The translations under genes and the position numbers were made by a program. A stretch of 63,877 nt of DNA, the filler included, from Kipferlia bialata (Eukaryota): the NCBI GenBank assembly GCA_003568945.1. It is 4 parts of 4 records of this genome, joined end to end, with 100 filler letters (N's around TTAATTAATTAA, not from the genome) between each part and the next. Parts side by side here need not be neighbours in the genome. Positions count along the whole stretch, not along the records: positions 1 to 22,298 come from BDIP01000297.1; positions 22,399 to 44,691 come from BDIP01000298.1; 2 more parts are not named here. One strand, 5' to 3'. The first letter of the stretch is position 1, and every line of letters starts with the position of its first letter. The notes beneath the pieces were generated by a model, which had not been told where the DNA came from, did not search any database, and was given only the letters and a program-made list of their open reading frames with translations. Shown here in pieces: positions 1 to 44,691 of the stretch.

Positions 1-246
1 TGTATATATATATAGTGTATGACTGAAGCAGACAGTGGCTGTCACAGGTACAGAGTATATACATATGTATATATATATAGTGTATATAATATGATATATA
101 TATATATATATATATATACGAGAAGCACACAGTGGCTGTCACAGGCCCCTACTACCCCTCTGCTGTGCTTGACACTCTATATATACATAGTGTATATATA
201 TATATATATATAGTCTATATATATAACTGTATACCCCTAACCTCAG

Positions 247-3200
247 TGACCCTTGACATCTCCGACCCCTACTACCCCTCTGCCGTGTTTGACACTCTGC
301 CGGTGCCCACATCTGACCAGGGGGCACCTAGAGGAGTATCCATAGGTATATACAATACACACATATATGTATTCATATATATTGGAGATAGAGAGAGAGA
401 GAGATATTGTCTGTGCCCACATCTGACCAGGGGGGTATCATTATAGATATGTGCATTATGTGTAGATATATTATATGTACCACCTGTATGTATTAGACAT
501 ATGTATTAGACACATGTATTTATTGTATATGTGTGTATAGAGGGGGACATAGAGACTCCTAGCCAGGGGGCACCCAGGGGGGACAGTATAGATTCAATGT
601 ATGCATATTTGTTGTTGTAAACACTTACTAGGCCTAGTAGTTGTATATATATCCTTGCTCACCCCCAGCCTCTGTCTCCCTATCATATCCCCATGCACTA
701 TATTCATTCATGTATAGGTGTAAGTCCATAGTATGTATAGTGTCACATCTCACCCCCAGCCTCTGTCTCTCTGTCATATCCCCATGCCGCTGTGTCGCTG
801 GGTGTGTATGGAGTGGCCATGTACACACACACCGCCAGCACATCTACACAAGCATCGAGTAATCTACGCGATTATGACACTGCCTGGGTGGTTGAGACTG
901 TCCTCACCCATGCCTCCTGCACCCCTGACTCTGCCGTCCCATACTGCTATGGGGACTATGGCACCAATGTCTCTGTGACACGGGGGGGAGGGGCAGTGTT
1001 CCACAGTGATGAGTGCATTGAGCTGGAGGTATATATAGTACATATAGTATATATAGAATATATACACATATATATATAATGGTATGTATATATATGTACC
1101 AAGTGTCACAGTGACACAGGGTATGCAGTATGTGCATATGTATATACGCTGCATACTATAATACTATCAGTGTATATACACACATACTGTATGTCATCAA
1201 TTGTGTAACCCCAGAACACTGATGATGACTTTGAGCAGTAACGGTGTATATTGAACATACATGAATATATAATAATGTATAATATGTATATGTATATATG
1301 TATACACATCATAAAGGTGTGATACCAATGCTGACACCAGAGCACTGACGATGACTTTGAGCAGTACGGGTGTGTCATCACGGCCAACAGGTACCGTATG
1401 TGTGTATATACACTATATATAGTATGTAGCATATGGTGTATATAGATACATATACTATATAGGCATCTGATGCATTGGAGTATGGGTGTGTCATCACGGC
1501 CAGCAGGTATATGCATTGTATATATATATATATATATATTCTTATATACTATATATATATATATATATATACTATATGTATATGTCATCACGGCCAGCAG
1601 GTATGGAAGTATGTATATATATATGTAGTATGTATAGGGATAGGTATGGATGTGTATGAAGGTACACATGTATCTCTGTCAATCTATAGATACTATATTG
1701 GTGTGTGAACCATAGAATAGTATGATGTGCTGCAAAATTGCAAATCTGAGGGAAACTACCAGAGGTGAGATGTGTACCATATAATGCAGTGTTATGTATG
1801 CTATTCTCTTTACTGACCTCAGGGACACCAACAGTGGCCAATGGGTCATGACTTGTGTTGATAGAATGTGTATATATATACCTTTAGTGTGTATATAGGA
1901 TGTATGTAGTAGGTATGTATATATATATATATATATATACCTTTAGTATCTACTATACTCCTGACTGGCCAGTGGGCCATGACTGGTGTTCTATATGCAC
2001 TGTATATAGTATATATTTACACATTATGTATATGTGAACGCGTACCCAGTCTAGGGACAATGTTCTATATGCACTGTATATAGTATATATATATAAATAT
2101 TTCGTACCCACTCTAGGGACAGCAGTGGAGAGTGGGCCATGACTGGTGTATATATACACTATATATACACTATATATATATATATATGGTATAGTATTAG
2201 TTACCCACTCTAGGGACAATGTTCTATATGCACTGTATATAGTATATATATATATGTATCGTACCCACTCTAGGGACATCAGTGGAGGGTGGGCCGTGAC
2301 TGGGGGTGTGCAGTCCATGCTGTACAAGCTACTGATGGCTGATGGGACCGACATGCTGATGTACTTGGATGAGGGGACAGTGCTGGCTGGGGTGGGGACA
2401 GCAGGTATATACTAGTATATATACTAGTACATGTGGGTACATGGATGTGTGTATGATTATTTGTATACACCTCCTGACCCCCCAGACATATATGGCGCCG
2501 TGGCCCTGTCTGTCCAGCCTGATATATATATATATATATAGACATATACATATATATATATATGTATAGATAGATATATATAGACTGACCCAGACATATA
2601 TGGCGCCGTGGCCCTGTCTGTCCAGCCTGATGCACCCACCCTGCCTGTGTCAGTGTATGCAGCACCAGCCAGTATTGCATTAGGTATAGTATATAGTGTA
2701 TATAGGAGGGTCTGGAGGGTCTCATTCAGTCATGTCTCTCTCACACACACTCTCTCTCTCTCGTTATATATGTATTCTATTAGTATACTTACACAAGACA
2801 CACAGAGTCTCTGTCTATATGTGAATATGAATGCATATCTCTAACCCCCAGGCCAGTCCATGCTGGAGGGTCTCAAGCTGTCCTTCTCAGACAGTGCTGG
2901 ACAGGCAGTGTATGACCCGAGTGCCACGGTGATAGTGACCATTCCAGGTATATACTGTTACTGTGTCCCACTATACAACAACCATGTTCACTTGGTATAT
3001 ACTCGTTTGTATATCCTTGCCGTGTATGACCCATCTGCCACCGTGATAGTGACCATTCCAGGTATACATATGATATATATTACTCATACTATATGACTCT
3101 AGGGACTGTGTCTGAATAGTGTGTATACTATATACTCTCTTATATGTGTGTATGACCCATCTGCCACAGTGGAAGTGACCATTCCAGGTACGCTATAAAT

Positions 3201-4495
3201 ATTCTCTAGCTATTTGCCATTTGTGTATGCGTATAGTGGACTCTACTCCTAGGTTCCACACACCCCATACACCGTTCTTACGCTCATGTGTGTGAAGATG
3301 TGTGTATATATGTACATATTCCCTTACATATACCCTCACTCCAGGCGGCAACGCGTCCAGTGACAATGTACTAACCCCACAAATAGAGAATCACATGTAT
3401 ATTTATGGACACACACATATATATACATGGATCTAGGTATTTATATATGCCCATATTCCATGACCCAAGGTGGCACCTCGTCCAGTGACATATATATATA
3501 CATATACATATACATATATATATATATATCATGTGCCCTGACCCCTCAGGTGGCACCTCGTCCAGTGACTCTGTCCTCTACGCCCAGGCCGACCCTACCC
3601 TGCATGCATACACAGTGCCACCTCTGGTATGATATATATAGAGAGATAGAGAGGGATAGAGTAATACACATACACACACACACATATATATATATATATT
3701 TAAATCTATATATATATACATATGCATGCACAGTGCCACCTCTGGTATGTGATGTATAGAGAGACAGGGAGATGGATAGATGGGCAGATGGATAGTTGTA
3801 TAGATAGACAGATACGCAGTGCCACCTCTGGTATGTGTATATATGTCTATATATGTGTATGTTGACTGTGTGTATATTGATATAGCTTGATGGCTGTTGT
3901 CGTGATGCAAGTTTCTATACTCTAGATCCACTGTCTACAATACCACGTTTCTCTCTCGATCTATGAATACCTCTTCTCTCACCCCTTAGATCCTTGACTA
4001 CACCTCTGTCAACAGTCTGGGTGCACAGGTGGATCTGGGGGTCACCTTCTATGGGGTCACAGGTATACATGTATGTATATGTATATATATATATATACAT
4101 TGTAGTGGAGTGCCATGTATATGTATATATATGTATGTATATATATATAGTGGTCACCTTCTATGGGGTCACAGGTATATACTATATAGTATACTATCAC
4201 TGTATATATAATATACAGTGATATACTGTGATATACATCTATTGGGAGAGGTGGATCTGGGGGTCACGTTCTACGGAGTGACAGGTGGGTGTGTATACAT
4301 AGGGTGTATTCTATGGAGTGACAGTATTGGTCTTTGGGGTATACTACTCTCTGACAGGTATAAACTATATAGTATACTATCACTGTATATTATATATACT
4401 GTATATACATCTATTGGCCTTTGGTATATACACTACTCTCTCTAAGCCTCTATATATAGTCACTTATACTCGGCACTGAGTCCATCTATACGTTC

Positions 4496-4530
<35 letters not shown>

Positions 4531-4955
4531 ACATGTATACTAACCACAGGCACTGAGTACATCTGTGACCTCAGTGTCCAGACTGACCTGACCTTTCTCT
4601 CTCTCTCTTTCTCTCTCCCTCCCCCCCTCTCTCTCTCATATACCTTACTGCTGCTTACCCTCCAGGCACTGAGTACATCTATGACCTCAGTGTCCAGACT
4701 GACCTCACTGTCTCCCTCACCACCACATGTGGCAAGACAGGGGGGGTCAGCATATACCCCTTGTACCAGGGTGGGTATATACACACTAGTGTAGAGTGAA
4801 TACTATATACGCTGTACTCTAGGATATATCTTCTACATGTGGCAAGACTAGGGGTTGTGGCAGTATATCCACTGTACCAGGGTGAGATGTCTGTACTAGC
4901 ATGTTGCATCTGTATTGTCTCTCACGCATTACCTCAGACTCCACCGTATACTCTG

Positions 4956-4999
<44 letters not shown>

Positions 5000-6365
5000 C
5001 TAATCGCTAGATAGCTCTCTGGACTCCACACCCACTGTCTACTCTCTCTCTCTCTCTCTACCATTCCTATGCCCCTGACCCCTCAGACTCCACCCTTGAC
5101 TCGACACCCACTGTCTACTCAGTCACCCTGACCAATGAGTACGGGGCAACAATAATGGATGGGAGACAGGTATGTGGGGAATGTGTTATATACACGCATA
5201 CTATCATGTCTGTCATGTGTATATATAGGTGTTGCATGGTATACCACTCTATATAGTTATATAGTGATATATATGAATAGTTATATAGTATACCACCGAC
5301 TAACCCCATTGTCCTGTCTACTATGTGTGGTTCACTTTCTATGTTACTCTTGAGGTGTACTATATACTATATGCTATATACTATATACTATATACTATAT
5401 ACTATATGAGCACTATGGCCACTAATCCACCAGGTCCAGATAGGCCTGTCTGACTCTGCCATGTGTGACATGGCATGGGATGCAGACACACTGGCATACA
5501 GTGCCACCCTCACATGCACAGGCAGGGGATGTTCATGTATACATGCTGCTGATGATTTCTACGTTGATCTTCCCACACACACCCTCACCCTCCAGACGGT
5601 GACTCTCTCCACGTGGCTGTGTACTATGCTGGGTCATCATACAGGGTGGAGGAGAGGTATGGGCATTTATACTGCACTATAATATAAATATACAGAATAC
5701 ATCATGTGATTATTATGTGATAGAAGCCTCTATACAGTTGGGAAGGGTTCATTGTTACTACAGATCCACTTCTCTCACGTCACTTCTTTAGTGTAACTCA
5801 CACTCAGCGGATATACATTTTATATATATATATACGACTATACTCTATATGTGTATTTACTTAGATTATAGTGTATAGTATAGAGTGTGTATAGTTCACC
5901 CTAGGCTCCACTACTCCTCCCCCGTGACCTCTGCCCGTATATATATATATATATATGTATATGTATATGTATATATTTATATATATATGTATATTGATTA
6001 TAGTATATATAGTCTATATATACTACGTATACTCACTCCCAGGCTCCACTACTCCTCCCCCGTGACCTCTGCCCGTGTGTCCCCTGATAGCTGTCAGCTC
6101 TACATGCCCACCACATTCTGTGCACACCTGTCAGACAGTCAGGGTAAGTACTACATGTATAGTATATATATATATTGTTGTATTAGTATATATTGTCCGA
6201 TAGTCAGGGTAAGTATTATTATTCATATGTATCCATTGGATGAGTATACATGTATGAGTATACACCCTGTGCACACCTCTCAGATAGCCAGGGTAGGTAT
6301 GTGTATAGTGTATATATACACATTCTGTATCTATATATATTATACATATACATTATACATTGAGG

Positions 6366-6407
<42 letters not shown>

Positions 6408-9278
6408 TTGTCGATTAATCCTCTTTTAGTAGTGTGTATGTTGTGTATCTATATTCTAGCAGTACCAGGCCACATGATCGGTGGTGACCTTGCCTCCCCA
6501 TCCACACTCCTGTATAGTATATGTATATATTCATATACATACAATAGTATAATATCATCAGTTATGTATGTCAATACAAATATAAATATAGATTCATAAC
6601 CCCAGGCCGCATGATTGGGGGTGACCTTGCCTCGCCCTCCCTCCAGTTCAGTACCAGTGGGCAGGCACAGACAACAGAGGCAGAGGTGTGGATGTATATA
6701 CATATACATATATATATACATGTGTATATATATGATATATATATATAATATACTATACATGCTAGTACAAGGGGACAGGCACAGACTACAGTGGCTGAGG
6801 TGAGTATGTATATACATATACATATATATACATGTGTATATGTATGATATTCATTATATATACATATGGTGGATATATATACATATACACATATATATAT
6901 TTACATGTGTATATATATGATATTTATTATATATACAGACAACAGTGGCTGAGGTATTTTTGTATTCTTATATGAGAAGATGTTTTCTCTACACTGGCGT
7001 GTTGGATTTCCATGTTCTGACTATTTCATATACTCATCTTCCATAATGTAGATATATATACATACTGATCCATCTCACACTTCCAGTGGGATGAGTATGC
7101 CCATGCCTACTGTGCTATTACCTGTACTCTCCTCAGTCATTAGTGCATTATATATATATATGCGTACTGTATCCCTCTAACCTCCAGTGGGATGAGTTTG
7201 CCCATGCCTACTGTGCCATACTGGTACCCGAGCACAGCCACACGGATGATGCTGATAGTGTGCTCTCTATACAGGTATGGACATATGTAAATTATACTGT
7301 GTATAATATTACTCATCTCTCCAGGTCCGGTACGATGGAGATATGTATATATTATTGTCTATACTACTATTATATACTATATGTATATATATAAGTCTAT
7401 CCTACTCAGTGTTCAGGTCCTGTACGAGGGTGTAGTCAGTGAGTGTCTCATCTATAGCATACAGTATATAGACATATGCTTTGAGTCACAGATACTTAAC
7501 ATCCAGGTCCTGTATATATATATATATATATATCTGCATATATTCTCCAGACCTCCGACTTGGAGCAAAAAGCCAGTTTAGTTTAGAATGTTATACTTAT
7601 CTCTCCAGGTCCTTATATATATGTATATGTATGCATATGCTCATCTCTCCAGGTCCTGTACGAGGGTGCAGTCATTGGCCACAGTGATGTGACAGTGTAC
7701 GATGCACTGGAGGGGGTGTCAGTGCACACACCGTCAGGTACGACACTCTACATATATACACACATATATATGTATATTCTATGCCCTTTTGCCCAGCCAA
7801 TGACCCCTTCCACTCTGGTGCCATGTGTACTCTTCTAGTATATACACATTATTGCCTATGTATATACCCATTTCTATTCAATTGTATGTACCGTATATAT
7901 GTATACTAACCTCCAGCCAATGACCCCTTCCGGTCTGGTGCCATGTGTGCCCACTCAGACCTGATGTTCATAGTGGACGCAGCCAGTGCCAAGGTATACA
8001 TATAGTATTAGTATATGTATATGTATATAGGTGTATATTAATATATACATATATCTGTAACCATATCTCTATATATGTACATGTACCATATATATATATA
8101 TATATATCATATGCAGCTAGTGCCAAGGTATACATGTATACATATATACATGTACCATACATATATATATATATATATATCTGCCTCTTAGGTCCGTGTA
8201 TAGGGTCTCCACCCACACCGACCCAGTCTTCTACACCCTTATGTATCTATCACATATGTACATGTATACTATATATCCAACCCCAGGTCCGTGTGTACCG
8301 TGTCTCCACCCACACCGACCCTGTCTCCTACACCCTTCTGTCAGAGGCTGACCTACTGACAACGGAGGGGTCATACAGTGAGTATGATACTGTCAGGTAA
8401 GCATTACCTTTGAATAGTGACTCTCTCTCTCTCTCTTACTCTAGCATATCCTATGACCCCTCCTCCTCCTACCTCGCTGTGGGTATCTCTCTCTATATAT
8501 ATATCCCTCTCGATATATATCTCCCTCTCTCTACATATATACCCATCTTACCCTAGCATATCCTATGACCCCTCCTCCTCCTATCTGGCTGTGGGCAGGT
8601 CAGGCATGGTAGGGGACAACGGGGCATACATGTACAGACTGGACGATGGAGGTAAGAGCTTATGCAGAAATGTATATATATATATATATGTATATGTATT
8701 GGCATGGCAGGGGACAAACGGGCATACATGTACAGACTCGATGACTCAGGTACCGATGTATATCCTAGCCACACACACACACATATATATATATATATAG
8801 TACACAGTGTATATATAGTAGTTGTGTGGGCATGTGGTAGGGGAGTGCAGGCTGGACGATGGAGGTATGGACTGCTACACTCATACACAAGTGTATGACC
8901 TCCCCTATCTTCATCTGACCCCTAAGCCCTCCACCTCGTTGTGCGTCTATCCCACTCTGTATATATACAGTGTATACACATATATATACTTATCTATGTA
9001 TTTATGTATATATAATATCTCTCACCCTCTAGCCACCCTCCACCCCGTTGGGTGTCTTGGTCACTCCGATTATACATATAGTGTATCTTTATATGTGTAT
9101 ATATATACCTATATGCATATACAGTATCCTTACCCCCAGCCACATTGCATCCTGTTGGGTGTCTGGCCCACTCTGATGGTAACAGCCACGACTCAACTGG
9201 GCTGGTGGCCATGGAGAAGGGTACGGTATCTATGATATATAGTCATGCATATAGTATAGATATTGATATATATATATG

Positions 9279-9311
<33 letters not shown>

Positions 9312-11863
9312 ACTGGGCTGGTGGCCATGGAGAAGGGCATGATACAGTACATGACAGACACATACATATATGTACAGATTCATATATATATATGTACATA
9401 TATACATACATATATACATATATGTACATATATACATATATGTACAGATACATTCAGAGACTGCTTGTATGTACAATATACGCATACTCTCACTGACACC
9501 AGGTGTCCTAGTGATTGCCATGTCATACTCTGTATGTATCAAGTGTATATACATATATATATGATATGGTATATATGTTATATACATATATATATATACT
9601 CTCACTGATATCAGGTGTCCTAGTGATTGCCATGGACAACGGGGCCACCATATACGGCCTGGAGGATGGGGTATGGGGACTCAAGCAGGTGCTGTACCAT
9701 ATTGCATAAATAGATATATTTATATATATGACCATACTTGTACCTATATCTTAATAGGGTATAGTATATACGGCCTGGAGGATGGGGTATGGGGACTCAA
9801 GCAGGTATCACTACTGAGCTATGCTCCATATGTATATATATAGAGGTGTATGAATAGTGCTATTGTATTTACGGACTGGGGAAGCAGGTATGGTCATAGT
9901 TACAATGATTAGTCATGTATTGTACTGGTAAATGTATGTGTGGAGTCATAGCAATGCCCTAACCCCCAGGAGATTGTGGTTGACCTGGGCCCGTACTATG
10001 TGCAGCCATGGGTGGACACAGATGGGGAGACAATTGTGATAGGTATATATATACATGCACATATACATATATATATATAATATACATATATGCCATGGGT
10101 GGACACAGATGGGGAGACCATTGTGATAGGTATGGACATATATTGAGAGAGAGTGTGTATATGTATACAAGTATGTATGTATATGAATGGTATAGCCATG
10201 GGTGGACACGGACGGGGATACTATAGTGATAGGTATAGTAGGGATCATATATAGGTATATATATGGTGACTTCTATCGGTGTAGAGTCACAAGACTCAGT
10301 ATCGGTATGAATAAATAGATACACACTTACACCAGGTGTCACGTACTACCACCATGTGCTTGTGTACAGTAGGGACGCTGATACACACATGTGGGCACTC
10401 AGCGATACGGTATGCGTTGGTGCAGTACACTACATATTGTGATTAGACACATTCTCTTGTGCCTCTTGTTGTATTGACATGTGGGCACTCAGTGACACGG
10501 TGAGTGTATTGAGAGTGCACTCTTTCTCTTTCTCTCTTTCTCTCTTTACAGTATAATATATGTTGTTGAATACTCTTGCACTAGTGTATGAATAGTCATT
10601 CGTGAATACACATTTATGTTTGGGATAGTGGAGTCTTACCTGTCTTACCCTCAGTTGGTTGACCCCTATCTGACCTGGAACACAGGCTATGGGGAGATAG
10701 TGGCAGTGGACAGGTATACATAGTGCGTGTATACACTAAATATTGTATTTGATAGTTAGATATATTATATATAGTATTATATATAGCACAGGCTATGGGG
10801 AGATAGTGGCGGTGGACAGGTGTGTATGTATACTATGTATGTATAGTATGTATACTATGTATGTATAGTATATACTGATATGTATAAATATGATATGATT
10901 GTGTGTGTATTCCATGATCTTTATATGCAGAGATAGTGGCAGTGGACAGGTACTGATATATATATACAAATATATATACATATATATATATATGTGTGTA
11001 TGTATAGTATGATTGTGTGTATGCATATCGACATATGGAGAGATAGTGCCAGTGGCCAGGTGTGTATATATACTATATATAGTATATACTGATATGTATA
11101 TATATGATATGATTGGGTTTATACATCATGATGCATATATGGCGAGATAATGGCAGAGTCATACACTGATACATGTATATACAGTCAGTGAACACTACAA
11201 TGCAAAGATATATTATTTATATGTGTACTGCTGACCATCCAGGGACATCATACTTCTAGTCACCATGCCCATTTGTAGTATTCATGTACTATACACACAC
11301 CTCTATATTCTAACTATTCGTGCATATATATATACATGTATGTAGTATACTGACCATCCAGGGATATTATTCTTGTCACCAACCGCTATGCCCCTCTGGC
11401 AGCATGGGTTATAGTCATATATATTCATATATATATCCATATATATTCTTATGTATATTATGTACATATAGATGTAGACATTGATATAGATATATACTTA
11501 TGTATATTATGTACATATAGATATAGACATTGATATTGATATATACTTATACTCAGGGACATCATCCTGGTCACCAACCACTATGCCCCCTCTGGCAACT
11601 TTGATATCACAGGGCCTCCCATGTATGTGTACACTAGGGATGCAGACTCCCTAAGTAAGGGAGAGAGAGAAAACGAGTATCTTAGAAAGGGAGGGAGAGA
11701 TGGAGAGAGTGAGACTGACGGTGACTGCGGGTGGACCCTTACCACCATGTATGTGGGCCCATCCAACAACCAGTTTGTGTACTCTACCATAGAGGTGGAG
11801 GATGGGACCATCCTGATCACGGACAAGTATGGGTGGGAGGTATGCGTATATATGTATATATAT

Positions 11864-11903
<40 letters not shown>

Positions 11904-13465
11904 GGACGATCTTGATCACTGACAAGTATGGGTGGGAGGTGGGTGTGGCATGTATATCTGATACTGAGATGGATATATATATATATATATATGTATGGGT
12001 GTGTGTGTGTGTGTGTGATGACCGACACTGCTATCAATAGCAATAGCACAAGAATAGTACTCACCCCCATGTCCATGTGTACACTCCTATTTGTATTGAT
12101 AACTGTAATACGTAGGTGTATATATATTATGAAGTATATATTATATCATATATATATATATATAATAATACGTAATATGTTCCACTGACCCTCAGATCCA
12201 TGTGTACACCCTGTCTCCAATGGACAACACTCTGGTGCAGGTGGGTGTATATATACATAGTATATATATGTATAGTGCCCTGTCTCCAATGGACAATATA
12301 TATATGTGTGTATATATATATATAGTATATATATAGTATATGTATATAGTATGTACACTCTGGTGCAGGTAGGAGTAAGGACATTTGTGTATGTACTAGT
12401 GTATGTATATACGAGTGTAAGTATGTACACCCTGGTGCATGTAGGAGTATATATATACATATATATGTATTCACATATATGTATACACATATATATAGTA
12501 TTAATATATATATACATATATTTTATGTGCATGGTGCAGGTTTAGGTGAACGTAGCCAATAGGTGGCATGTACACATTCAACAAGACACTGGTACTGGAA
12601 GGAGTATAGTTATAGTATAGTAGCACGTACCCTAATGAGTCGGAAACTCTATTCATTATCTGTATACCCTTTATTCAGATTGAATGACACGACACTTTAC
12701 TATTCTTTGTCAATGTATTGGTGCCATATACATATGTATCATCATTCCGATATATATATATATGTATATGTATAATGCCAGGTCCGCACCCTGTCGTACG
12801 ATGGCTCAGAGCCAGGCCACTCCACATACACATACTTTGGACACCAGGCTGCATTCAGCGGGGAGACGGTGTATGCAACAGGTATATATATACTTGATAA
12901 TGTATAGATAACATATATCATCTGTTTACTATGCACTATATGTTTTGCGGCGTTCAGGTGGGAATACAGTGTATGCCACAGGTATGGGTATATATATATG
13001 TACTATATATATGTACTATATATATGTACTATATATATGTACTATATATATGTGTTATATGTATAGTACTATATGTATAGTACTATGTAGTATACTCTGG
13101 AATCCTAAGTCCGGCTTAGCCGATACCAAATACTGTACACTGTTTACATATTCATTGTATACATATATATGTATTTTCCTAACCCCATATATATATGTAT
13201 ACTATATCCCATATCTATATGTATACTATAGACAGTGTAGCTTCCTGACCCCATCGCTGTCTTCACCGAGACCCTTGATGCCCCTGTCTCTATATTAACT
13301 AGTGTATACACTGTATAGTATATACTATATATATATAGTACTGCATGCATCTAACCCCCAGCCGTACTGACCGACACCGTTGACGCCCCTGTGTCCATAG
13401 TCACACTGTACAGTGGACCCAGCACAGGTATATATACATATATATTACATGTACATATATATATA

Positions 13466-13496
<31 letters not shown>

Positions 13497-15533: not shown

Positions 15534-15571
<38 letters not shown>

Positions 15572-17650: not shown

Positions 17651-17693
<43 letters not shown>

Positions 17694-18256
17694 TAAACAT
17701 ATGGTGTCAATGGTGGTCATAGGGCACAGGACAGACTTCACTCTCACAGGTACAGTGGATATATTCATATATTATATGATGTATATGTACACATGTGTAT
17801 ATATATGTATATATTGTGTATACGCCACAGTACAGACTTCGTACTCACAGGGACGATGTCACCTGGGGTGTGACATGTACTCTTTTCATATTATATATAT
17901 ATATATATATAAGCATGGCTCCAATACCAGGTTACGACTCTTGTAACAACGTGGTCCCTGTTGACATGTCCATGTCCGTGGCGTGGTGGCCTGAGACAGA
18001 GGGAGTTGCCCTGTCTAAATGCACCTTCAACACACCCGAGATAGGTTAGTGGATGTCAATATATATGTATATATACATATATATATGTATGTATGTATAT
18101 ATACACATTGTACATATAGTGCCCATGAGACAGAGGGGGTGGATTCATCGAAGTGTGTGTTCAACACTCCTGAGATAGGTTGGTGAATAGTGTGTGGTTC
18201 AACACTTTTGAGATGTCAACTAGCCAGTCTCTCTCTCTCTCTCCCTCTCTCTCTCT

Positions 18257-18303
<47 letters not shown>

Positions 18304-19114: not shown

Positions 19115-19155
<41 letters not shown>

Positions 19156-26100: not shown

Positions 26101-26236
26101 TATTTGGTCATTGTTATAGTGTCTCCACACGGAATCGAACCCACGCCAGGCCAGTGAGGAGCAGGGCATGCAGGCTGCACTGGAGGAGGAGAAGGCTGGT
26201 GCCGCACTCGAGCAGGAGACCGCCCTGGCCAAGGTA

Positions 26237-26287
<51 letters not shown>

Positions 26288-29200: not shown

Positions 29201-29433
29201 GTCAGATGCAGTCAGGGAGGCACTCGCCGATCTAGACTCTAAGCAGGTGGGGTATATATATATATAGAGAGAGAGAGATGCAGTGAAGGAGGCACTGGCA
29301 GACCTGGACTCAAAGCAGGTATTGAATATATATATGTATATATATATTTATAGAGAGAGAGAGAGAGAGATGCAGTGAGGGGGGTACTGGCTGATCTAGA
29401 CTCCAAGCAGGTGGGGTATATGATATGATATCA

Positions 29434-29469
<36 letters not shown>

Positions 29470-32400: not shown

Positions 32401-32708
32401 TGTATCTTCATTACGTGTATCTCTTATATATCGTATGTTTCTGTCATTATTATGGCCCCTTATTCCAGAACCAGTTTGAGACCCCTGTCCCTCAGCGCAC
32501 TGCCACAGAGGGAGAGAGAGAGGACGATGAGTACAGTGCCTCTGAGCCATCCCTGGAGTCCGAGGATGAGGGTGAGTACAGTGAGGGAGAGGGAGAGGGA
32601 GAGGGTGTGTCCATGGACTCAGTCTCTCTTGATGCTCTGCTGGAGATGCTCAGTGAGCACCCCTTGTTCGCACAGCTGCTTGAGGTACTCAGGAAGGGAC
32701 AGGAATAG
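22563..32708 (+). CDS. Long multi-exon coiled-coil protein, 5'-partial, function unknown
   Basis: In-phase exons include SLSDTATDMASLAVLVDESG, MDPEQAERLMAMLGAVLAK, AQLAARRRRKEAQHKLALEE, LLEQRLAARRRRK and IELYEKKREAMFERFGRAISELFQG. The last exon ends EHPLFAQLLEVLRKGQE* (TAG at 32706-32708). Composition is E/Q/R/A/L-rich. Confidence 0.8.
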
Positions 32709-33118
32709 GCGCCCTTGGCCTGCGGAGCATGTTTTGTGTGATGGGTATTCTGTTTGTACAGATACCCTGTTAGTATTCAGTAATAGATTCAGTATTTAGG
32801 CTTTCCATCATCCCGTCCCTCTGTGGAATCTACGGTATGACTTCCAGTACACATTCTAGGCATAGTACACAGAAATTCTATGATAGAATAGCTTTTTAGT
32901 CTAGTCGTGAATATAAGAAACATCTAGTATGATGTGTTCAAGTTAGATATTCAGCGTATGATCTCACAGTCTACTTGATATATAGCAATTTCAAATTGAA
33001 TTTATGTTTGTTGCTGACTGTACTGTTTCAGCGATTGTGAAGAATATGCTGAAGAATCAACTCTTGAGAAGTGACTTCCCTGAAGTCACCCACATTAGTG
33101 AGTGACACCTCACCAACA

Positions 33119-36100
33119 TTACCCGCAGTCCCTGTCGATATCCAGGTAGAACACCTGGGCTTAGGGCTATAAAAATATAGATTATTGCGTAGAATACCAT
33201 TATTCTATATTCTATTCTATCTCTATATATATGAAGCCCTACCTGGGCTGGTGTGGCACTAAGCTTACACCCCATTATGCAAATCAGTGATTATATTTTA
33301 ACTATAGAATTACTCTTATTCTACATAGAATACGTATTATTCAATATAGAAGACGCATTATCTCTATATATATGAAGCCCTACCTGGACCGGGGTGGCAC
33401 TACACCCCTTATGCAAATCAGTTACTCTATTATAGAATTACTCTTATTCTATATATAGAATACGCATTATTCTATATAGAATACGCATTATCTCTATATA
33501 TATGAATCCCTACCTGGGCGGGGGTGGCACTGACCCACAGTGGGTACACTCCATCTCCCTCCATCAACTGTGGCCTCTTAACCAGTATGACGTCCCCCAG
33601 CCAGACCTGTGTCTCTCCGGTCACTGTGTCATATGCCTCATATCTGTGACATTAGTGACCGAAGAAAGGATACAGCATATATAGTATGTATCATACATAC
33701 TGTGTGTATGTATATGTCATAAGCTACATACACTGCAGGTTCCACTCTAGGGTTGGGCGCCGTGCTGCGTCGTTGCCGAACAATCATCCGACCCACTGGG
33801 ACGGCACCTGATGCATACTTTCCAGTGAAGCTGGTGAGAGTCTCCCCACTCCCAAATGACATGTGCTCTCTCCATCCGTTAGGGATACTGTACGTTGCCA
33901 ACAGTATGTTCCGGCAGAACACGTAAAAGACACCCTTCAGTACACACATTTGGTGGGTTACAACGTCACGGGATGATAGGAATGGGCCGGCCTCTCTCTT
34001 AGAGTCTGAAACGTAGCGCCAGGTGCCGGTAGCCAGATCGAGTGTATAGTGCACAATTACACTTCGACCGTCCCAAGCAGTACCCTCTCTGTGCTCCCCG
34101 AGGCTGTGGAGCTGGTCTTCTAGCACAAACAGTGGCTCCATCTGCTTTGTCCAGTCTGTCTCCCTCTCTCTCTTGCGTGCATGACTCTCCCCGTCTAGGG
34201 GCTCTTGTGGTGTGGGTGGGCATGGGGGTAGCTTTCTCCAAGTGTGTGTGTCGAGGGAGAGAATGTAACTCTGCCAGGGAGTGCCCCACTCATGCTTAAC
34301 TGGACACAGGGAGAGAATGATCTCACTCCCAACACGCAACACACGGTGCGCGGTCCCTACATATCTGCCCAAAGGTAGCACCATTCCGGGTGGCAGAGGG
34401 ATATACTCCCTACTGCGCTGAGACCTGGTGTCTCTGTCACCTGTTGGTAGGATCATAATAGTATAGTTAGAGTCTCTCACTTAGAGATACAGGATGAGTC
34501 ATAGTATAATACTTACATTTCTCTTCATATAACTGGTGTCTCTGTCACCTGTGGGTAGGCTTTCAAGTATTTAGATATAAGCATGTATTGAATGATATGA
34601 TCTAAGAATAGAATACTATTCTAGTCTATTATGAATCACTAAATCTCATCAACTATCTAAAAGCCTACCTGTAGGGGGCATGGTGATGACACATAGCATC
34701 GTTGCATCCGTTGAGCACCGTTCACTAATTCTGAATAGGCCCTGACCTGGGCCGAGTACGTAGAGTAGTTCTTCTCTGGTACAAGTAGGTTGTGGCACCT
34801 GTGGCACAAGTAGGCGGTGAAGCGACACATCTGGGAATGGGATACCTGATGTTGAGCTGAATAGATGTACACGTGCATTCACATACGCCAGAACATATTA
34901 CTGACACTTTTCGAAGTGTATCGAAGACTAATTCACGATACTTGTACATATCCGAGGGGAAGATTACCTTTGTGTAGTCTCATCATGACAGGGCACTTTG
35001 GGTGATGGCTATTAAGGGTGACAGTGTCTCCTCTCAGTCCCCGCTTTCGACTGAATCCTCGGAGCCTAATGGTCCCTCTCCTGGTGTCATGTCATAACAT
35101 AGATGTCACTTTTAACTGCAGAAGTATGTCTTTTCTATCTCACAGAGGAAAAGTCGACTTTGTGCTTGTGTATAGCAATTCGTCTTCGGTAGTACAGAAT
35201 CAGTACCTGCTGAAACCAATACTTACGCTTGCTCCTTCCCAGCAACAAGACATACACTCAATGGTACCAGCTATCGGTGAGAATTCACATATAACATACG
35301 ATATCCTATACCGATGTCTCTAACAATGTTATAGCTGAAGTTGACACCCCACTGAGAACTGCTACTTCACACATGATACACATCTGAATACCTCCCACGT
35401 TGTTGTGGATGGAGTCGTCACCGGTTACATCCCATGTGCCTCCTGTCAGCTGTGATAAGTACATAATTGGATAACATTAGATAGTATTAGATACCTAGGT
35501 AAATTAGATATAGCCATATGTGGAGCACATACTCACATTGGAACTAACATACTAATCAACGGCTTCGTACAATACAAGAACGCCGCAGTTCTACTATTCA
35601 ACTGGCTACAATACTCACCTCATCCATCCTCTCAAGTAGACTGTTCATACTCAAGAACTTCTCGTCCCAGAGAGACATGGGGATAAGAGAGCAGTGCTGG
35701 GAGCTCTGCTGAAGACAGGGGTCTGATACTGCATACAGACAGGAAGGGCTATGTTCGTATGAGGGTGGCCTACTGTAATTAGCATTCCGCATCAACTAGT
35801 ACACATAGACACACAATCATTTGTGGTTATACATACACATACACTACATGGTATATAAACCATATATATTAGCTTTACAGTCCTACCTGTCAGTATACCC
35901 ACTTTGGAACTGCCCCAATGTGTATCCGGCTGCAGTAGAGGAATACTCGACTCTGTCATTAGTAAACACCCATCAGTATACGATGGACACTAGTCAAATG
36001 TGTGTGAATCAAGAACATAGTGCATACATTTAGTTTGTAGTGTCTATATATGCGATGAATATATACAGCACTGTTGACTACAGCACGATGTGACTCACCA

Positions 36101-37329: not shown

Positions 37330-38887
37330 CAATTCCTGATGAGTGAGAGGTCTGAGAACAAAGAATAGAGACATATGGGACGTAGGAGAAAGGGTTAAGA
37401 GAGAGAGAGAGAGGAAGAGAGAGAGAGAGCATTACCTGATGAGGGTGAGGTCTGAGGTCTCACCGGTGACAGGGTCAGTGACAGTCCTAGAATTAGACAT
37501 ATACAGAGAGAGAGAGAGAGAGAGACAGAGACAGAGAGAGAGCAAAGGTGACATATGAGATACCTCACTAGGGGGTCTGTCATGGATGTGTCAAACTCAT
37601 CCATGGAGAAGCCATACACGAGGGGCCACCAGAGGTCCTAGGGGTGAGGGTATATACATATATATAGAGAAGAAGAGAGAGAGAGAGAGAGAAGCCATAC
37701 ATAAGGGGCCACCAGAGGTCCTAAAGGTATGAAATAGAATTGTCTCAATACGCACTTACTATACCAGACCCATATAGTGTATCAGTTTGTATCATGGCCA
37801 AGAAATACAGCACAATACGCCAAACCCATTCACCGTAGGTCCAGTAAATGAAACATCAACTCTACAAATACCTTGGCGATGTATGGTCTATAATATATAT
37901 ATACATATACTATTTATGGATTGTTCCATACCTTTGCGATGTAAGGTCTGACGAACTCGTGGATAGTGTCAGCTCTGAAGGATGAGAGGTACTGGTCAAG
38001 AGAGAGAACGACAGAGAGAGAGAAAGAGACTAATAGAGTGAGAGAGAGAGAGAAATCGATGGTCTGAGGGGGGAAGAGAGAGAGAGAGAGAGAGGGCACT
38101 AACCTGTTGAGGAAGGGTCCAAAGACTGACATGCCATTGTCAAGGACAGCAGTGAGGTAGCTGGGCGTTAGGATCATCATAGAGAGCGACCTGCGAAACT
38201 AGGCACCATACACATCGGCCAACCTTCACTATACCTGTCGAATGTTGCCTTGAGCTCTGGGTGCTGCCACACACACATATACAAAGAGTAAGGTAATATA
38301 CATATATAGTATAAAGAGTATATATACTATATATAGTACATAAAATGCAATATCCACCTGTCGAATGTTGCCTTGAGCTCCGGGTGCTGCCACACACACA
38401 TATACAAAGAGTAAGGTAATACACATATACTATATATAGAGTATATATACACTATATACAGTACATATACACAGTGTAATACCTGTCGAATGTAGCCTTG
38501 AGCTCTGGGTGCTGCCACACAGACACATAAAGAGAAAGACTATATACCACATATATATAGTATATATTATATAAAGAGTATATATACTATATATAATGCA
38601 TGTACCTGTCGAATGTTGCCTTGAGCTCTGGGTGCTGCCACATCATGTTGGCCATGGGTCTGGTACCTCCTGAGGTATTAGAGGAATATGTGTATACATA
38701 TAGAGAGAGAGACAGAGAGAGAGATAGTATGGATGCTGCCACATCATGTGGGCCATGGGCCTGGTGCCACCTAGGGTTATATATAAATATACATATATAT
38801 ATACATATATAAATATATATATAGAGAGAGAGAGAGAGTATGGGTGCCGCCACATTATGTTGGCCATGGGTCGGGTGCCACCTGGGG

Positions 38888-38932
<45 letters not shown>

Positions 38933-40599
38933 ATATTAGCCATGGGTGTGGTGCTTCCTGGTATCAGAGGCTCAAATATACACAATTAGTAATATATACA
39001 TATATAATGAGGGAGAGAGTAGAGGCAGTACCTAGTACGCTGCCTGCACTGAAGTCTGGGGTGCCCCACAGGTGCACATCTCTCTCTCTCTCTCTCTTTC
39101 TCTATCTGTCTATCTATATATATATACATGTACACACCTAGTACACTACCAGCAGCGAAGTCTGGGGTTCCCCACTCGTGCACATCCATCTCACTCCAGT
39201 CCACAAACCTGGGAAATAAGGGGGTAGGGAGAGAGAGAGAGAGAGAGTCCGGTGGTCCAACATAGATAAAAACAACTGTATCAAGACTATGACTCACTAT
39301 CGGTAGTATTTCTAAAGGCGCCAGCCATACATACACTTATCCGTACCATGTTGTGTCGTAGGGGAAGTTGATGGCGTTTCCGAAGGAGATGCTGGGGTTA
39401 GACTGGTGGCATACAAATGTAGAGATACGGATGAACTGATAGAGAGAGAGAGAGAGAGGTCCGAAGGAGATGCTGAGGTGAGAGATTGGGGGGATAACAC
39501 ATGTATATAGAGTAAGAACCAGAGAGAGAATGGGGTAGAGTGTAGCAACATAGTATAACTAGCAATATACATACACTCGGCAGTGTCTATATAATACCTA
39601 AAGTCAAAGGGCAGGTACTGATCCAGGTCCCTGTCGTGGTCATTGTACATGCGCCAGTTGTTGCCGTTGAAGCCATAACCATCAACCTATGGGGTTAAGA
39701 GAATATGAAGAGAGCAAGAGACAGAGAGATGACAGAATAACAGTAAGTAACAGAGAGTATACAGCCAGGTACTTTGATCTGAGCATGGGATGTATCCACT
39801 CTAATATGGACTATATACACATATATATCTGAGTATGCATACATAGTACCTGCGAGGTAACCACTTCCAATACCATGGCCCTGATGAAGCCATCGAGGTT
39901 GAATGCATCAGTCATATATACTATATATAGTATATNNNNNNNNNNNNNNNNNNNNNNNNNNNNNNNNNNNNNNNNNNNNNNNTAGTATATACACATATAT
40001 GTATAACTATTATATACATATACAGTACCTGAGAGGTTACAACCTCAAGCACCATTGCCCTGATGAAGCCATCGAGGTTGAATGCATCAGTCAAGGCATC
40101 GATGGAGTCACTGTCAGTGTATGTCTCATTGCAGAGTCTAAAGACAGTCACAAGATCTGGATATAAGGGTCTAGAGAGCGAAAGAGAGAGAGAGAGTCAC
40201 TGTCAGTGTATGTCTCATTGCAGAGCTTGAACACAGTCACAAGGTCTGGATATAAGGGTCTATTGAAAGAGAGAGAGAGAGAGATGCACTTACCCTCGTA
40301 GGGCTGGGGATCCAGGGTGGGGTCATCCTTGGACATCAGCTCGTAGACGTGCCAGTACTGGCCTGGTATAAGCATAAGAACAAGAGGGCGCGGGTTCGAT
40401 TCCCATTGCCGTATAAAAGGGTGGTAAGAGAGATAGAGAGAGACGTACGCATGTAGTAGTTCTCCATGTTGCGGTAGGTGTCGGTGTCATCGTCGATGTA
40501 CTGGGGTGAAAGGATGTAGGGGGGAGGAGAGAGAGAGAGAAAAACAATCTTTAGAATAGGATTCTTTCGAAAGAGGTGACGAGGGAGCGGAAGAAGGGA

Positions 40600-40632
<33 letters not shown>

Positions 40633-42375
40633 GATAGAGAGAGAGAGAGACTCGTACCTCCATGGATGCAGGTGCGTGTGTCTTGTAGGCGTTGCCCTTG
40701 TGGTTGCCATATCTAGAAGGTAAATAAGGGTGTAGATGGAGAGAAGGTACACAATCATTATCATATCCTTGTGGTTGCAATATCTAGAAAAAATGAAAAG
40801 GGTGTAGAGGTTGCAAAAGGGTCTAGAGGGCAAAAGAGGAGATAGCGGTAAAAGAGTACTAAATGGTTAGGGTCTAGAGGAAAAGTTACTGAGATAGTGA
40901 AACTAACAATGAACAATTATAGAATTATAGAAATAACAACAGAAAACAATTGTGATAATAGCAGCATCTGAAGGTATAAGGGGTATGGATTAGAAGTGAC
41001 TGTACGTACCTGCTCTTGTAGAAGTTCTTGTCCACTGGCTCCTGGGAGTGAGAAGAGAGTGCAAAGAGGCACAAAGAGTGAAAGATAGAGGAATATACGA
41101 TGCACTGAATCTTGATAGTTCTACGCACCTGATCTGCACCAGACCGTGGTTGACCTAAAACAACACCATCATATAGCACATAATGAAGTATCGATACACC
41201 ATACGTATATCAATACGCACCTGGATCTGGACCAGACCGTAGTAGACCTCGTTGATCCACAGACCGGCATAGGAAACACGGAGGGAGGGGATGGCTGGAC
41301 ATAAGGGTCTAGAGAGAGAGGGAGAGAGAGCGTTATGATGCAAAGACGTTAGGGTCATGGAGGGAGTTGTGATTGGAATGTAAGAAATGTATACTCACAT
41401 AGGCTCTCTGCGAGGTCGTATGACATTCTATCTCTGACGAGAGATGGGTCATCAGACTGGGCCTGGCACACAATCTGGTGTCAATAAAGGGTGTAGAAGG
41501 AGAGAGAGCGAGAGAGAAAGAGGGATGGGTCATCAGACGGGGCCTGGCACACAATCTTGTATTAATAAGGGTGTAGAAGGAGAGAGAGAGAGAGGGTAGG
41601 GGGTCATCACACTGGGCCTGACACACAATCTGGTGATAAATAGGGGTGTAGAAGGGAAAGAGAGAATGAGAGAGAAGGTCTTACCTTCTTGAGTCCGTAT
41701 GGCTGCTGTGTGTCGACGTACTCATCGAACTTGATGGTGAAGGACTTCTTGGCATTCATCCTGTCAATAAGGGGTTGGAATTTATACAAGATAATCTTTA
41801 CTGCATACACTCAGAAATGTACTAGTATATGGACATGAATACTCAGTAATTTGATGAAGGACTTCTTGGCACTCATCCTGTCAATTAGGGGTTGAAACAA
41901 GTGTCCACAATCAACTAGAGTATTCAAGCAATAAACAACATGGACTAAAGTATACCTCGTGGAGTATCCATGCAGCTTGATGGCCACCTGCAAAGTTATA
42001 CATATATACACATACATATATGCATATATGCATATATGCATATATCCCCATGTATATGTAGCCATATCCATACATATTCACCTCGTGGAGTATCCATGCA
42101 GCTTGATGGCCACGTTGTTGTACATACATACACACACATATATATACATATAGTATATCCAAATATATATATGTATATATATATATATGTATATATGTAT
42201 ACCTTGTGGAGTATATACATACAATATATAGTACATAGTATATAGTATATAGTGTATACATGTATATATATATATACCTTGTGGAGTATCCGTGCAGCTT
42301 GATGGCCACGTTGTTGAGTTCGAAGAAGACATTGCCGTTGTCGAAGGAGACACATGGGGTTAGTAATGTATATAC

Positions 42376-42424
<49 letters not shown>

Positions 42425-43473
42425 TTGCCGTTGTCGAAGGAGACGCATGGGCTCAGATACAGAGAAAGAGAGAAAGAGATAATGAAGAATACACTACCAG
42501 AGGTAAATACCAACACATACAAGTCACTACTACATTCTTGATGCTGGGTAGTAGTCGTCATACTGGATATCAAGGCAAATATGTGTCTGTTTATCTACAT
42601 ATACATATACACTATAGGGAATATTTATATTTCGTTATATATTTGTATTCATACATATATATGTATACATGTCTACATACTTGATGCTGGGTAGTAGTCG
42701 TCGTACTGGAAGTTGGCAGGGGCATACATCTCTAGGGTTAGAGAGTGGGGGAGAGAGAGAGAGAGAGAGAGAGTAAACTCACCGTTCAGCACATCCTGCT
42801 CCATGTAGACATGGATGTCAGTATTATTAGTATCAGTATCATCACAAAGATAGAGAGAGAGAGAATATACTCAGTATCAGTATCAGTATCACTCACCGTC
42901 CAGCACGTCCTGCTCCATGTAGACATGGAGGTCAGTATAAGTATCAGTATTAGCATCAGTATTAGTATCAGTATTAGTAACTATATCATCATAAAATAGA
43001 GAGAGAAGACACTCACCGTCCAGCACGTCCTGCTCCATGTAGACATGGATGTCGGCAATGACAGACACGTTGAACAGAGGGTGGTTGAACCCATAGACAT
43101 CCTCTGAGAGTTAGAAGGACCTGGGTTCGAATCCCACTTAGGCACACAAAAGAATAGGGTTGAAGACAGGGTGGTTGAACCCATAGGCATCCTCTGAAAG
43201 TGAGAGACAGATTAATAGCGTGGAGGCAAATGAGGTTCGTGGGTACGAATCCTATAGGCACTACTTATACCTGCAAACACTGGCCAGTCAGAGTGGACTG
43301 ATATGGGCAGCTCTGGGATGGTAGGGATAGCCATGTCACAGACAGAGCCGGTCCATCCTGCGTCGCAAAGACAGCCTCTGACAATAAGGGGCTAGGTGGA
43401 GAGAGAGAGAGACAGAGAGAGAGACAGACCCGGTCCACCCTGCATCACAGAGACATCCCCTGATATTAGGGGT

Positions 43474-43508
<35 letters not shown>

Positions 43509-44073
43509 TGGCCATGTCACAAACAGAGCCGGTCCACCCTGCGTCGCAAAGACATCCTCTGAGAATAAGGGTGTAGAGAGAGATAGAGAGGGGGGGATGA
43601 TCATGTCACAGACAGAGCGGAGGGGTGTAGCGGGAGAGAGATCTACAAAGACACCCTCTGGCAATAAGGATGTAGACGAGAGAGGGAGAGAGAGAGCCAG
43701 GTCACAATATTATTTATATATACATGTATATGAGTATACCTGTCTCCTGTGAGTGTACCGTGCTGGCAGAGACTGTCCTAAACACACACATATATATATG
43801 TATATAAAATAAATATATCAACAGGTAAACATATATATACCTATCTCCTGTGAGTATACCATGCTGACAGTGGCTGTCCTCACTTTGGTACATTATATAT
43901 ATACTAATGAACACGTATCACACATATATACATGTTTGTACTCATACACACCTATCTCCTGTGAGTGTACCGTGCTGGCAGAGACTGTCCTCAGTGGGGA
44001 TGGAACAGTCATAGCCACCCCATCCGTCAAGGCAGGCACAACCTAAGAATGAGATACTAGTAAAACAATATAG

Positions 44074-44109
<36 letters not shown>

Positions 44110-44265
44110 ACAGTCATAGCCACCCCAGCCGTCTAGACAAGCACAGCCTACTATTAGAGAGATGCCATACATATATAAGACGGAGAGAGAGAGAGTATGG
44201 AGCAGTCATAGCCACCCCAGCCGTCTAGACAGGCGCAACATACTATTAGAGATGGCATAATGTAG

Positions 44266-44303
<38 letters not shown>

Positions 44304-44540
44304 TGTAAATACTAATAAAGAGAGAGAGAGAAAGGCCTTGTATTAGAGACTCAGTCAGAGATGGGAAATATTAATACAGTAGTATCTAGTATTACTCAGT
44401 GTAAAGAGAGAGAGAATGTCATAGCCACCCCAGCCATACAGACATGTACATCCAATTACTAGATGTGTGTATATATATATACAACATTATACTCACCTCT
44501 CTGTCCAGCACAGACTCCATGGCCAACATGGCTCATGCAG
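37023..44540 (-). CDS. cotH: CotH-family protein kinase with N-terminal EGF-like Cys-rich modules, 5'-partial
   Basis: CotH motifs lie in successive exons: NVAIKLHGYSTR, AKKSFTIKFDEY, DPSLVRE, PSLRVSYAGLWINEVYYGLVQIQEPVDKNFYKSRYGNHKGNAYK, FNLDGFIRAMVLEVV, DGYGFNGNNWRMY, QYLPFDF. The end reads WGVEEFVHRRWLSAMEQLGQY*. The N-terminal exons read CMSHVGHGVCAGQRGCACLDGW.GYDCSIP and CQHGTLTGD. Confidence 0.85.
39936..39982. other. Intra-scaffold gap inside a CotH intron
   Basis: N run with no linker motif, between (TA)-rich flanks. Confidence 0.95.
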
Positions 44541-44639
44541 CTGAGATTAGATATATATATATATATAGAGAGAGAGAGACAGAGAGAGACAGAGAGAGAG
44601 AGAGATGCCATGGCCAACATGGTTCATACAGCTGGGGTC

Positions 44640-44691
<52 letters not shown>

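What the first reader, a model, noticed from the sequence alone, without database searches (positions are those of the whole stretch)
1..44650. Polarised 'exon echo' arrays: exons flanked by half-copies of themselves that keep their splice sites
Seen: in the surface-protein, coiled-coil, kelch and CotH genes, many exons sit in the arrangement [acceptor + 5' part]n - full exon - [3' part + GT donor]n, on either strand and in gene order. Examples: exon 3550-3626 has 5' echoes at ~3344 and ~3470 and 3' echoes at ~3725 and ~3815. The exon at ~4667 has 5' echoes at ~4472 and ~4550. The exon at ~16980 has four upstream GTGAGGA echoes (~16551, 16636, 16751, 16865). The CotH exon ending ~38605 has 3' echoes at ~38481, 38376 and 38234. 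Dozens of cases are visible. Inference: a recurrent duplication process centred on exon/intron junctions is inflating these introns. The spliceosome would have to reject many intact decoy acceptors and donors, implying strict exon definition, or else use them. I do not recall this described as a genome-wide architecture.
Basis: partly seen in the sequence, partly recalled or inferred. Interest (0 to 1): 0.9.

Follow-up and report, generated by a model that had tools for sequence, protein, structure and literature searches.

The report
Fossil exon ends stacked in introns
In three genes of the free-living protist Kipferlia bialata, most exons are flanked by short copies of their own ends that keep the splice signals yet were skipped in the RNA checked; the copies differ from the exon mainly at silent positions, so they are likely leftovers of once-working gene versions that DNA break repair would have pushed aside.

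Summary
Observation confirmed. The window is Kipferlia bialata. In three modelled genes (113 exons) there are 156 exon fragments in the adjacent introns against 1.7 expected. Polarity is perfect: 57 upstream 5' pieces, 70 downstream 3' pieces, none reversed, none whole, 29 internal; 51/57 keep AG and 64/70 keep GT. In the 7.4 kb laid, DNA contigs carry exon and echo together at full depth, and 6 of 13 shown RNA splice joints jump intact decoys while none ends on one. New here: echoes differ from their exon like coding alleles. Differences are 5.8/5.6/20% by codon position. The ratio of positions 1+2 to position 3 is 0.29, against 0.56-0.60 simulated for a neutral copy. Changes private to an echo are also silent-biased, and near-identical donor echoes share no intron flank (0/13). 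Units repeat every ~112 bp. Best reading (inferred): a break in an exon is repaired by copying from a diverged homologue and end-joined, leaving the old exon end as a decoy. Not uniform: 1 echo in 59 exons of the other two scaffolds.

The parts
247..22056 (+). Gene 1: 44-exon model of a large protein with a C-terminal hydrophobic stretch (surface protein by inference); 5' end lies before the window; 104 echoes, 41 of 44 exons
3347..3830 (+). Type array: 5' echoes 3347-3372 and 3470-3489, exon 3550-3626, 3' echoes 3722-3744 and 3812-3830
16552..17132 (+). 5' echoes 16552, (16637), 16752, 16866; exon 16981-17026; 3' echo 17100-17132 (33/33 identical, unrelated intron flank)
21202..21908 (+). Exon 21202-21288 followed by six 3' echoes; the nearest shares the exon's letters where the five farther ones share other letters
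22563..32711 (+). Gene 2: 47-exon coiled-coil-like protein; 19 echoes, at both ends of the gene, 16 of 47 exons
   Evidence: Open frame to a stop; six introns match RNA joints
30519..30741 (+). Intron spliced in RNA across a GT-bearing 3' echo (30596-30640) and a short one ending ~30674
30970..31169 (+). Intron spliced in RNA across a GT-bearing echo at 31029-31047; exon and echo on one DNA contig (30596-31107)
31629..32023 (+). Intron spliced in RNA across two AG-bearing 5' echoes (31796, 31896)
32282..32468 (+). Intron spliced in RNA across 3' echo 32351-32385; both exons and the echo on one DNA contig (32075-33227)
33155..33513 (-). Kelch-like gene intron spliced in RNA across two GT-bearing 3' echoes (33401, 33260)
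   Evidence: weak Kelch Pfam hits
34441..34668 (-). Kelch-like gene intron spliced in RNA across one AG-bearing 5' echo (34548); on one 3.7-kb DNA contig
37436..44540 (-). Gene 5: 22-exon EGF-like + CotH-like protein; 33 echoes, 15 of 22 exons
38235..38952 (-). CotH exon 38669-38606 with three upstream and three downstream echoes
45894..45911 (+). The single echo found in scaffolds 3-4 (last exon of a Rab-like gene)

Best explanation
The echoes are real partial copies of exon ends lying in the neighbouring introns and skipped in the RNA checked; they are likely formerly working exon ends from diverged alleles, which break repair would have displaced. Inferred steps: (1) a double-strand break falls inside an exon. 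(2) One end invades the homologous chromosome, where only exon sequence is alike, and copies through the splice site into the intron. (3) It is released and end-joined to the other end instead of annealing, with TA/TC/AG-rich filler made at or after the joint. (4) The newly copied piece completes the exon and the old piece becomes an echo: acceptor side upstream, donor side downstream. (5) Later events add new echoes next to the exon and push old ones outward; unequal exchange between units extends some arrays. (6) The arrays are likely tolerated because the spliceosome pairs the closest acceptor and donor across the exon (exon definition), and copies that would enclose both sites are purged. 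No function of the echoes is implied.
For: Shown. Polarity 127 of 127 end-anchored echoes. Differences at codon positions 72/1241, 71/1257, 250/1252; pN/pS 0.24. 0-fold/4-fold ratio 0.236, bootstrap 0.18-0.31 over 72 exons, and below 0.35 for each base. 236 of 393 changes synonymous vs 42% expected if the echo were neutral and the exon fixed only silent changes, p 9e-13. Neutral simulation through the same detector gives 0.56-0.60 vs 0.287 observed; stable over thresholds and in all three genes. In 34 exon/near/far trios, exon-private and near-echo-private changes are alike (0-fold 9 and 10 of 455; 4-fold 12 and 15 of 113) while the far echo has 24 0-fold changes. Identity falls with rank (rho -0.21, p 0.018). 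C>T+G>A 114 vs T>C+A>G 108, so no decay bias. 0 of 13 near-identical donor echoes share the true intron flank. Spacers are TA-rich (GC 0.23-0.32 vs 0.35-0.46 in echo-free introns); 9 of 10 (AG)n runs lie just before a 3' echo and 24 of 68 (TC)n runs just after a 5' echo. DNA contigs bridge exon and echo at depth 429-457 vs 456 for a 3.8-kb contig; 6 of 13 shown splice joints skip intact decoys, 0 use one. Known. Failed SDSA plus end joining gives tandem duplications (PMC8654963, section 12). Fornicates lack Rad51A and Ku and carry two Dmc1 (PMC8516963, passages). Dmc1 tolerates mismatches (PMC8682777, abstract start in listing).
Against: No donor allele was seen: the laid 7.4 kb shows only 2 changed letters and 2 small indels in the DNA run, so high allelic diversity must be past, or hidden below 90% likeness or in collapsed contigs. 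Silent divergence of ~0.25 would need a very diverse population or a hybrid. The tight unit length (median 112, IQR 99-125, independent of echo length) is not explained, and worm duplications of this type have a median of ~1 kb. There is no divergence gradient within echoes. Acceptor flanks are partly similar (18 of 51 at p<0.05, 3 of 8 near-identical ones), as a self-duplication would give. The echo-private ratio of 0.31 rests on 61 changes and its interval reaches about 0.5 (my estimate). The DNA run may be the assembly's own sample. RNA evidence is one contig per joint, and 4 joints were not shown.
Confidence: 0.5

Rival explanations
1. The donor was a paralogue or a homeologue of a hybrid ancestor rather than an ordinary allele; the copying and joining steps are the same.
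For: Explains the same silent bias and the large silent divergence and the near-absence of heterozygous letters now.
Against: No second copy of gene 2 exons at 90% or more likeness appears among the listed differences (85 loose ends not shown). Six-echo arrays show more than two letter classes. Gene 2 has the same ratio as the family-like genes (0.21 vs 0.28 and 0.15).
Confidence: 0.2
2. Plain tandem duplication from the sister chromatid across an exon-intron junction, then neutral decay.
For: Gives the polarity and locality directly. Some flanks are alike. 13 of 35 neighbouring echoes share a broken end. TA-rich spacers could erase flank similarity fast.
Against: Predicts a ratio of at least ~0.5; observed 0.24-0.29. 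Echo-private changes are silent-biased, p 8e-6 against no bias. No AT-ward bias.
Confidence: 0.1
3. Whole exons were duplicated, both copies coded for a time, and one was later cut back from the side that selection allowed.
For: Also predicts polarity and silent bias. Unit length is about one exon-plus-intron period minus ~50 nt (exon median 76, intron 85).
Against: 0 of 156 echoes are whole. No residual similarity beyond the broken end (n=117). Echo-bearing exons are not enriched for lengths divisible by 3 (22/70 vs 20/37).
Confidence: 0.07
4. Echo sites are used in minor isoforms or nested splicing, and the echo sequence is kept by present selection.
For: Echo sites score nearly as well as true ones (medians 6.1 vs 6.9 and 6.15 vs 6.7); 45 of 127 outscore their own true site. 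Contigs drop rare forms.
Against: 0 of 13 shown joints use an echo site and the RNA run shows no changed letters. Only 8 of 115 intact echo sites would give an in-frame, stop-free insert; 41 of 115 are multiples of 3, as by chance. 40 of 71 echo introns are one-sided, and some inner gaps are 17-28 nt.
Confidence: 0.07
5. Assembly artefact: haplotype pieces strung together through microsatellites.
For: The pieces look like alleles. The unit length is near a short-read length. The published assembly of this species is short-read SPAdes (PMC5874029, methods). One exon start at 30408-30462 looks broken.
Against: Separately built contigs hold 94% of sampled words and bridge intron-to-mid-exon joints with 0-1 changed letters at undiminished depth. 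A haplotype has exon, not intron, beside a mid-exon position, so such joints cannot come from path switching (inference).
Confidence: 0.06

Closest known systems
Human F7 intron 7 minisatellite (PMC1557585, abstract read)
   Same: Tandem copies spanning an exon-intron boundary give silent donor pseudo-sites; the most upstream donor is used.
   Different: One locus, 37-bp units with identical sites, donor side only. Here 156 copies on both sides of exons, ~112-bp units, allele-like divergence, and acceptors where the last site wins, which first-come scanning cannot explain.
Human CBS 844ins68 (PMC1334203, passages read)
   Same: An insertion at exon 8 creates a second splice site, and splicing yields mostly normal mRNA. 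That it duplicates the intron 7-exon 8 junction is recalled, not from the passages.
   Different: A single polymorphism whose skipped copy holds a missense change; here differences are mostly silent and echoes are stacked.
Tandem duplications from failed SDSA plus polymerase-theta end joining in C. elegans helq-1 mutants (PMC8654963, abstract and section 12 read)
   Same: Proposed route: an extended end is joined rather than annealed, duplicating what was copied.
   Different: There ~100 bp-10 kb (median ~1 kb) in repair mutants. Here ~112 bp, fixed in a wild genome, with a template inferred to be a diverged homologue.
[quoted passage not shown]
   Same: Local tandem duplication of exon sequence with splice motifs.
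   Different: Those create a new intron inside an exon; here existing introns lengthen and no site is added to the mRNA.
Tandem (mutually exclusive) exon duplication (general knowledge; 10.1101/2025.08.16.670673, listing only)
   Same: Diverged coding copies side by side with silent-biased differences.
   Different: Those copies are whole and used; echoes are half exons with one splice site.

Membership tests
Junction-spanning tandem duplications with silent decoy sites (F7/CBS type) | Local head-to-tail copy that includes an exon end and its splice site | tested here: met
Junction-spanning tandem duplications with silent decoy sites (F7/CBS type) | Authentic site used, decoy skipped | tested here: met
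   6 of 13 shown joints skip decoys, 0 use one; one contig each, 4 joints not shown
Junction-spanning tandem duplications with silent decoy sites (F7/CBS type) | Copy is a self-copy, with intron flank as alike as the exon part | tested here: not met
   0/13 donor and 3/8 acceptor near-identical echoes share the flank; silent bias
Failed-SDSA/end-joining tandem duplications | Direct tandem orientation | tested here: met
   140 direct pairs under 500 bp; the 3 inverted hits are palindromes
Failed-SDSA/end-joining tandem duplications | Microhomology or templated insertion at the joint | tested here: inconclusive
   Microsatellites abut broken ends, but the donor sequence is unknown
Failed-SDSA/end-joining tandem duplications | Dependence on strand invasion and polymerase theta | not testable with these tools
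   No genome held; needs genetics
Tandem or mutually exclusive exon duplication | Whole copy with acceptor and donor | tested here: not met
   0 of 156
Nested introns / stwintrons | An inner intron must be removed first | tested here: not met
   40 of 71 echo introns hold only one kind of decoy; inner gaps down to 17-28 nt; intermediates themselves not testable
Intron gain by proto-splice duplication | New intron between the two copies is spliced | tested here: not met
   No shown joint starts or ends at an echo
Haplotype concatenation artefact | Contig breaks and halved depth at echo joints | tested here: not met
   7.4 kb only, possibly the source sample

The most novel reading that the evidence does not exclude
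Kipferlia keeps a readable, ordered archive of its own extinct alleles inside introns. Dmc1-only, NHEJ-free break repair swaps in exon ends from diverged homologues ~110 bp at a time and stacks the old ends as decoys, supplying about two thirds of the intron DNA in affected genes. A reduced spliceosome with ~85-nt native introns and no detected U1-70K, U2AF35 or SF1 still defines exons strictly enough to ignore about one intact decoy per intron.
Probability: 0.35. Interest if true: 0.88.

Novelty: new variant of a known kind. Interest (0 to 1): 0.72.

Why it matters
It is a new route of intron growth that leaves a datable record of recombination and past allelic diversity in a single genome. 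It also gives hundreds of natural controls for an old question, how a spliceosome chooses between equally good sites: 45 of 127 decoys outscore their own true site. Short-intron protists are generally expected to pair sites across the intron (general knowledge), yet here the longest intron is chosen, in a species where a published survey found no U1-70K, U2AF35 or SF1 (PMC6679479 supplement table; non-detection may reflect divergence). Gene models for this species may also mistake echoes for exons, as my permissive gene finder did.

Tried and rejected
No whole genome is held, so no genome-wide count or paralogue search was possible. Protein searches with a gene 2 exon and the kelch frame found nothing. 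The metagenome scan with a gene 1 exon gave one 18-residue match, treated as chance and not used. The Atlas look-up failed on frame and was not repeated. No tRNA or tmRNA genes were found. Earlier-findings look-ups held nothing on this genome or pattern. Only contigs exist for both runs, so rare isoforms and heterozygosity cannot be read; run X2 was listed as a guess at RNA and is taken as RNA because it has GT-AG joints absent from X1. Rejected after testing: erosion of longer copies (no residual similarity); a refresh gradient from the splice site (none); base-composition or CpG cause of the third-position excess; detector bias; frame-preserving use of decoys. One negative inner-gap value caused by an internal hit was dropped. 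Nine nearest-echo distances of 170 or more were left out of the length correlation (83 of 92 used). Four aligned columns at each echo end were left out of the substitution counts. Literature: ten searches found no description of this architecture in Kipferlia or elsewhere; subscription journals are not covered, and only one supplement (PMC6679479) was read.
Full report
Setting. The window is four scaffolds joined by N linkers, with one further gap at 39936-39982. A GSK3 exon in scaffold 3 is 100% identical to a protein named Kipferlia bialata KIPB_002254; I assume the other scaffolds come from the same assembly. The species is a free-living fornicate with 124,912 GU-AG introns, a diploid k-mer profile and a short-read assembly (PMC5874029; parts 1-2 of 6 and passages read; the word 'duplicat' does not occur in its main text). 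I built exon models with a small gene finder and hand curation: gene 1 (44 exons), gene 2 (47) and gene 5 (22) read as open frames. Six gene 2 introns match RNA joints; the rest are predictions. Gene names rest on weak Pfam hits or on inference.

Observation. Aligning each exon to its two adjacent introns gave 156 hits at score 24, against 1.7 expected from distant introns; six further hits fell at other offsets. Of these, 57 are upstream and reach the exon's 5' end, 70 are downstream and reach its 3' end, none is reversed, none is whole, and 29 are internal; 51 of 57 keep AG and 64 of 70 keep GT. Median length is 30.5 nt and median identity 0.92. In all 31 introns with both kinds, donor echoes precede acceptor echoes. 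Intron length climbs with echo number from 85 to 588 nt; the 110 introns total 29,821 nt against 9,350 at the echo-free median. Scaffolds 3-4 have one echo in 59 predicted exons and about a tenth of the TA runs per kb. The polarity itself follows from geometry: a tandem copy with one breakpoint in the exon always leaves acceptor pieces upstream and donor pieces downstream (inference).

Real DNA, skipped in RNA. Two runs hold the region. Laid on 29480-36900, the DNA run gave contigs with 0-1 changed letters that bridge exon and echo: 30596-31107, 31580-31955, 32075-33227 and 33198-36900, at depths 457, 402, 442 and 456. The second run gave 13 shown GT-AG joints (15 rows, two from repeats; 4 more not shown). 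Six cross intact decoys, nine decoy sites in all, and none ends on a decoy.

The echoes were once coding. Differences from the exon fall at codon positions 1, 2 and 3 at 5.8, 5.6 and 20.0%; pN/pS is 0.24. A copy that decays neutrally beside an exon fixing only silent changes cannot go below about 0.5. The 0-fold/4-fold ratio is 0.236 (0.18-0.31), holds for each base and outside CpG, and a neutral simulation through the same detector gives 0.56-0.60 against 0.287. In 34 trios the nearest echo has as few private 0-fold changes as the exon (10 vs 9 of 455) and as many 4-fold ones (15 vs 12 of 113); the farther echo has 24 0-fold changes. On a two-phase model, 51-89% of the divergence accrued while both copies were coding. 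Changes are balanced between GC and AT. Similarity stops at the donor: none of 13 near-identical donor echoes shares the true flank, while acceptor flanks are partly alike. Spacers are TA-rich, and (AG)n runs precede 3' echoes as (TC)n runs follow 5' echoes, which is the same repeat when read away from the splice site on the two strands. Unit length is about 112 bp regardless of echo length.

Mechanism (inferred, 0.5). A break inside an exon; invasion of a diverged homologue by the end that has exon homology; copying through the splice site; release and end joining. The new piece works and the old piece becomes the echo, nearest youngest. The route is shown in worm helq-1 mutants with a larger size range (PMC8654963, section 12). 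Fornicates lack Ku, DNA-PKcs and Rad51A and have two Dmc1 (PMC8516963, passages), and Dmc1 tolerates mismatches (listing). The link to Kipferlia echoes is my inference. Against it: no donor allele is visible, and the fixed unit length is unexplained; it may be a repair tract or a selected minimum spacing filled by microsatellite growth. Tolerance: first-come scanning explains donors (PMC1557585, abstract), but decoy acceptors are transcribed first and still lose, so pairing across the exon is the likely rule, helped by the contrast of exon GC 0.53-0.60 and spacer GC 0.23-0.32. Using a decoy would be harmless in only 8 of 115 cases.

Comparison and novelty. Single-locus analogues exist (F7 IVS7; CBS 844ins68, passages; an FGG junction duplication that causes disease, title only). 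The echoes work like these in splicing but fail the self-copy feature. They are not whole-exon duplicates, new introns or nested introns. Ten literature searches found no account of the architecture. I file it as a new variant of a known kind, interest 0.72; the ordered archive of extinct alleles read by a reduced spliceosome (supplement table) is the novel case, probability 0.35.

Noticed in passing
window 25607, 26131, 27516 (+ gene); 40392, 43123, 43241 (- gene); 22265: Seven tRNA T-arm-like fragments (12 strand matches vs 0.71 expected; tRNA label recalled, ARAGORN finds no gene). Six are in introns, antisense to the gene; five lie 7-30 nt before a true acceptor and one before an echo acceptor. 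Possibly a SINE-like or captured piece.
   Followed up: partly
window 42680-42354 (- strand): A CotH-gene intron ends in AT, not AG, before an exon needed for the open frame; its 5' echo at 42444 also has AT. Possible non-canonical GT-AT intron, not covered by RNA here.
   Followed up: partly
window 30311-30518: No intact full exon: two AG-led starts (30311, 30408) are followed by a T/CT run and the rest of the exon.
   Followed up: partly
window 44792-63877: Scaffolds 3-4 (Rab-like, GSK3, cyclophilin fused in my model to a beta-propeller-like and a long low-complexity region, and others) have short, TA-poor introns and almost no echoes: the genome seems to have two intron regimes.
   Followed up: partly
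window 24400-26800 within gene 2: Echoes cluster at both ends of gene 2 and are absent from a central run of about 15 exons.
   Followed up: no
window 34850-36900 (- strand): A further spliced gene with RNA joints at 35449-35619, 35772-35887 and 35952-36230 and repeated protein motifs; not identified.
   Followed up: no
window 54768-54794, 37157-37181, 2410-2429: Three short palindromes of 20-27 bp.
   Followed up: no
window 2910-2947 vs 3019-3061 and 3148-3187; 16088-16136 vs 15824-15872: Serine codons switch between the AGY and TCN families between exon and echo, a two-step silent change typical of long coding divergence.
   Followed up: partly
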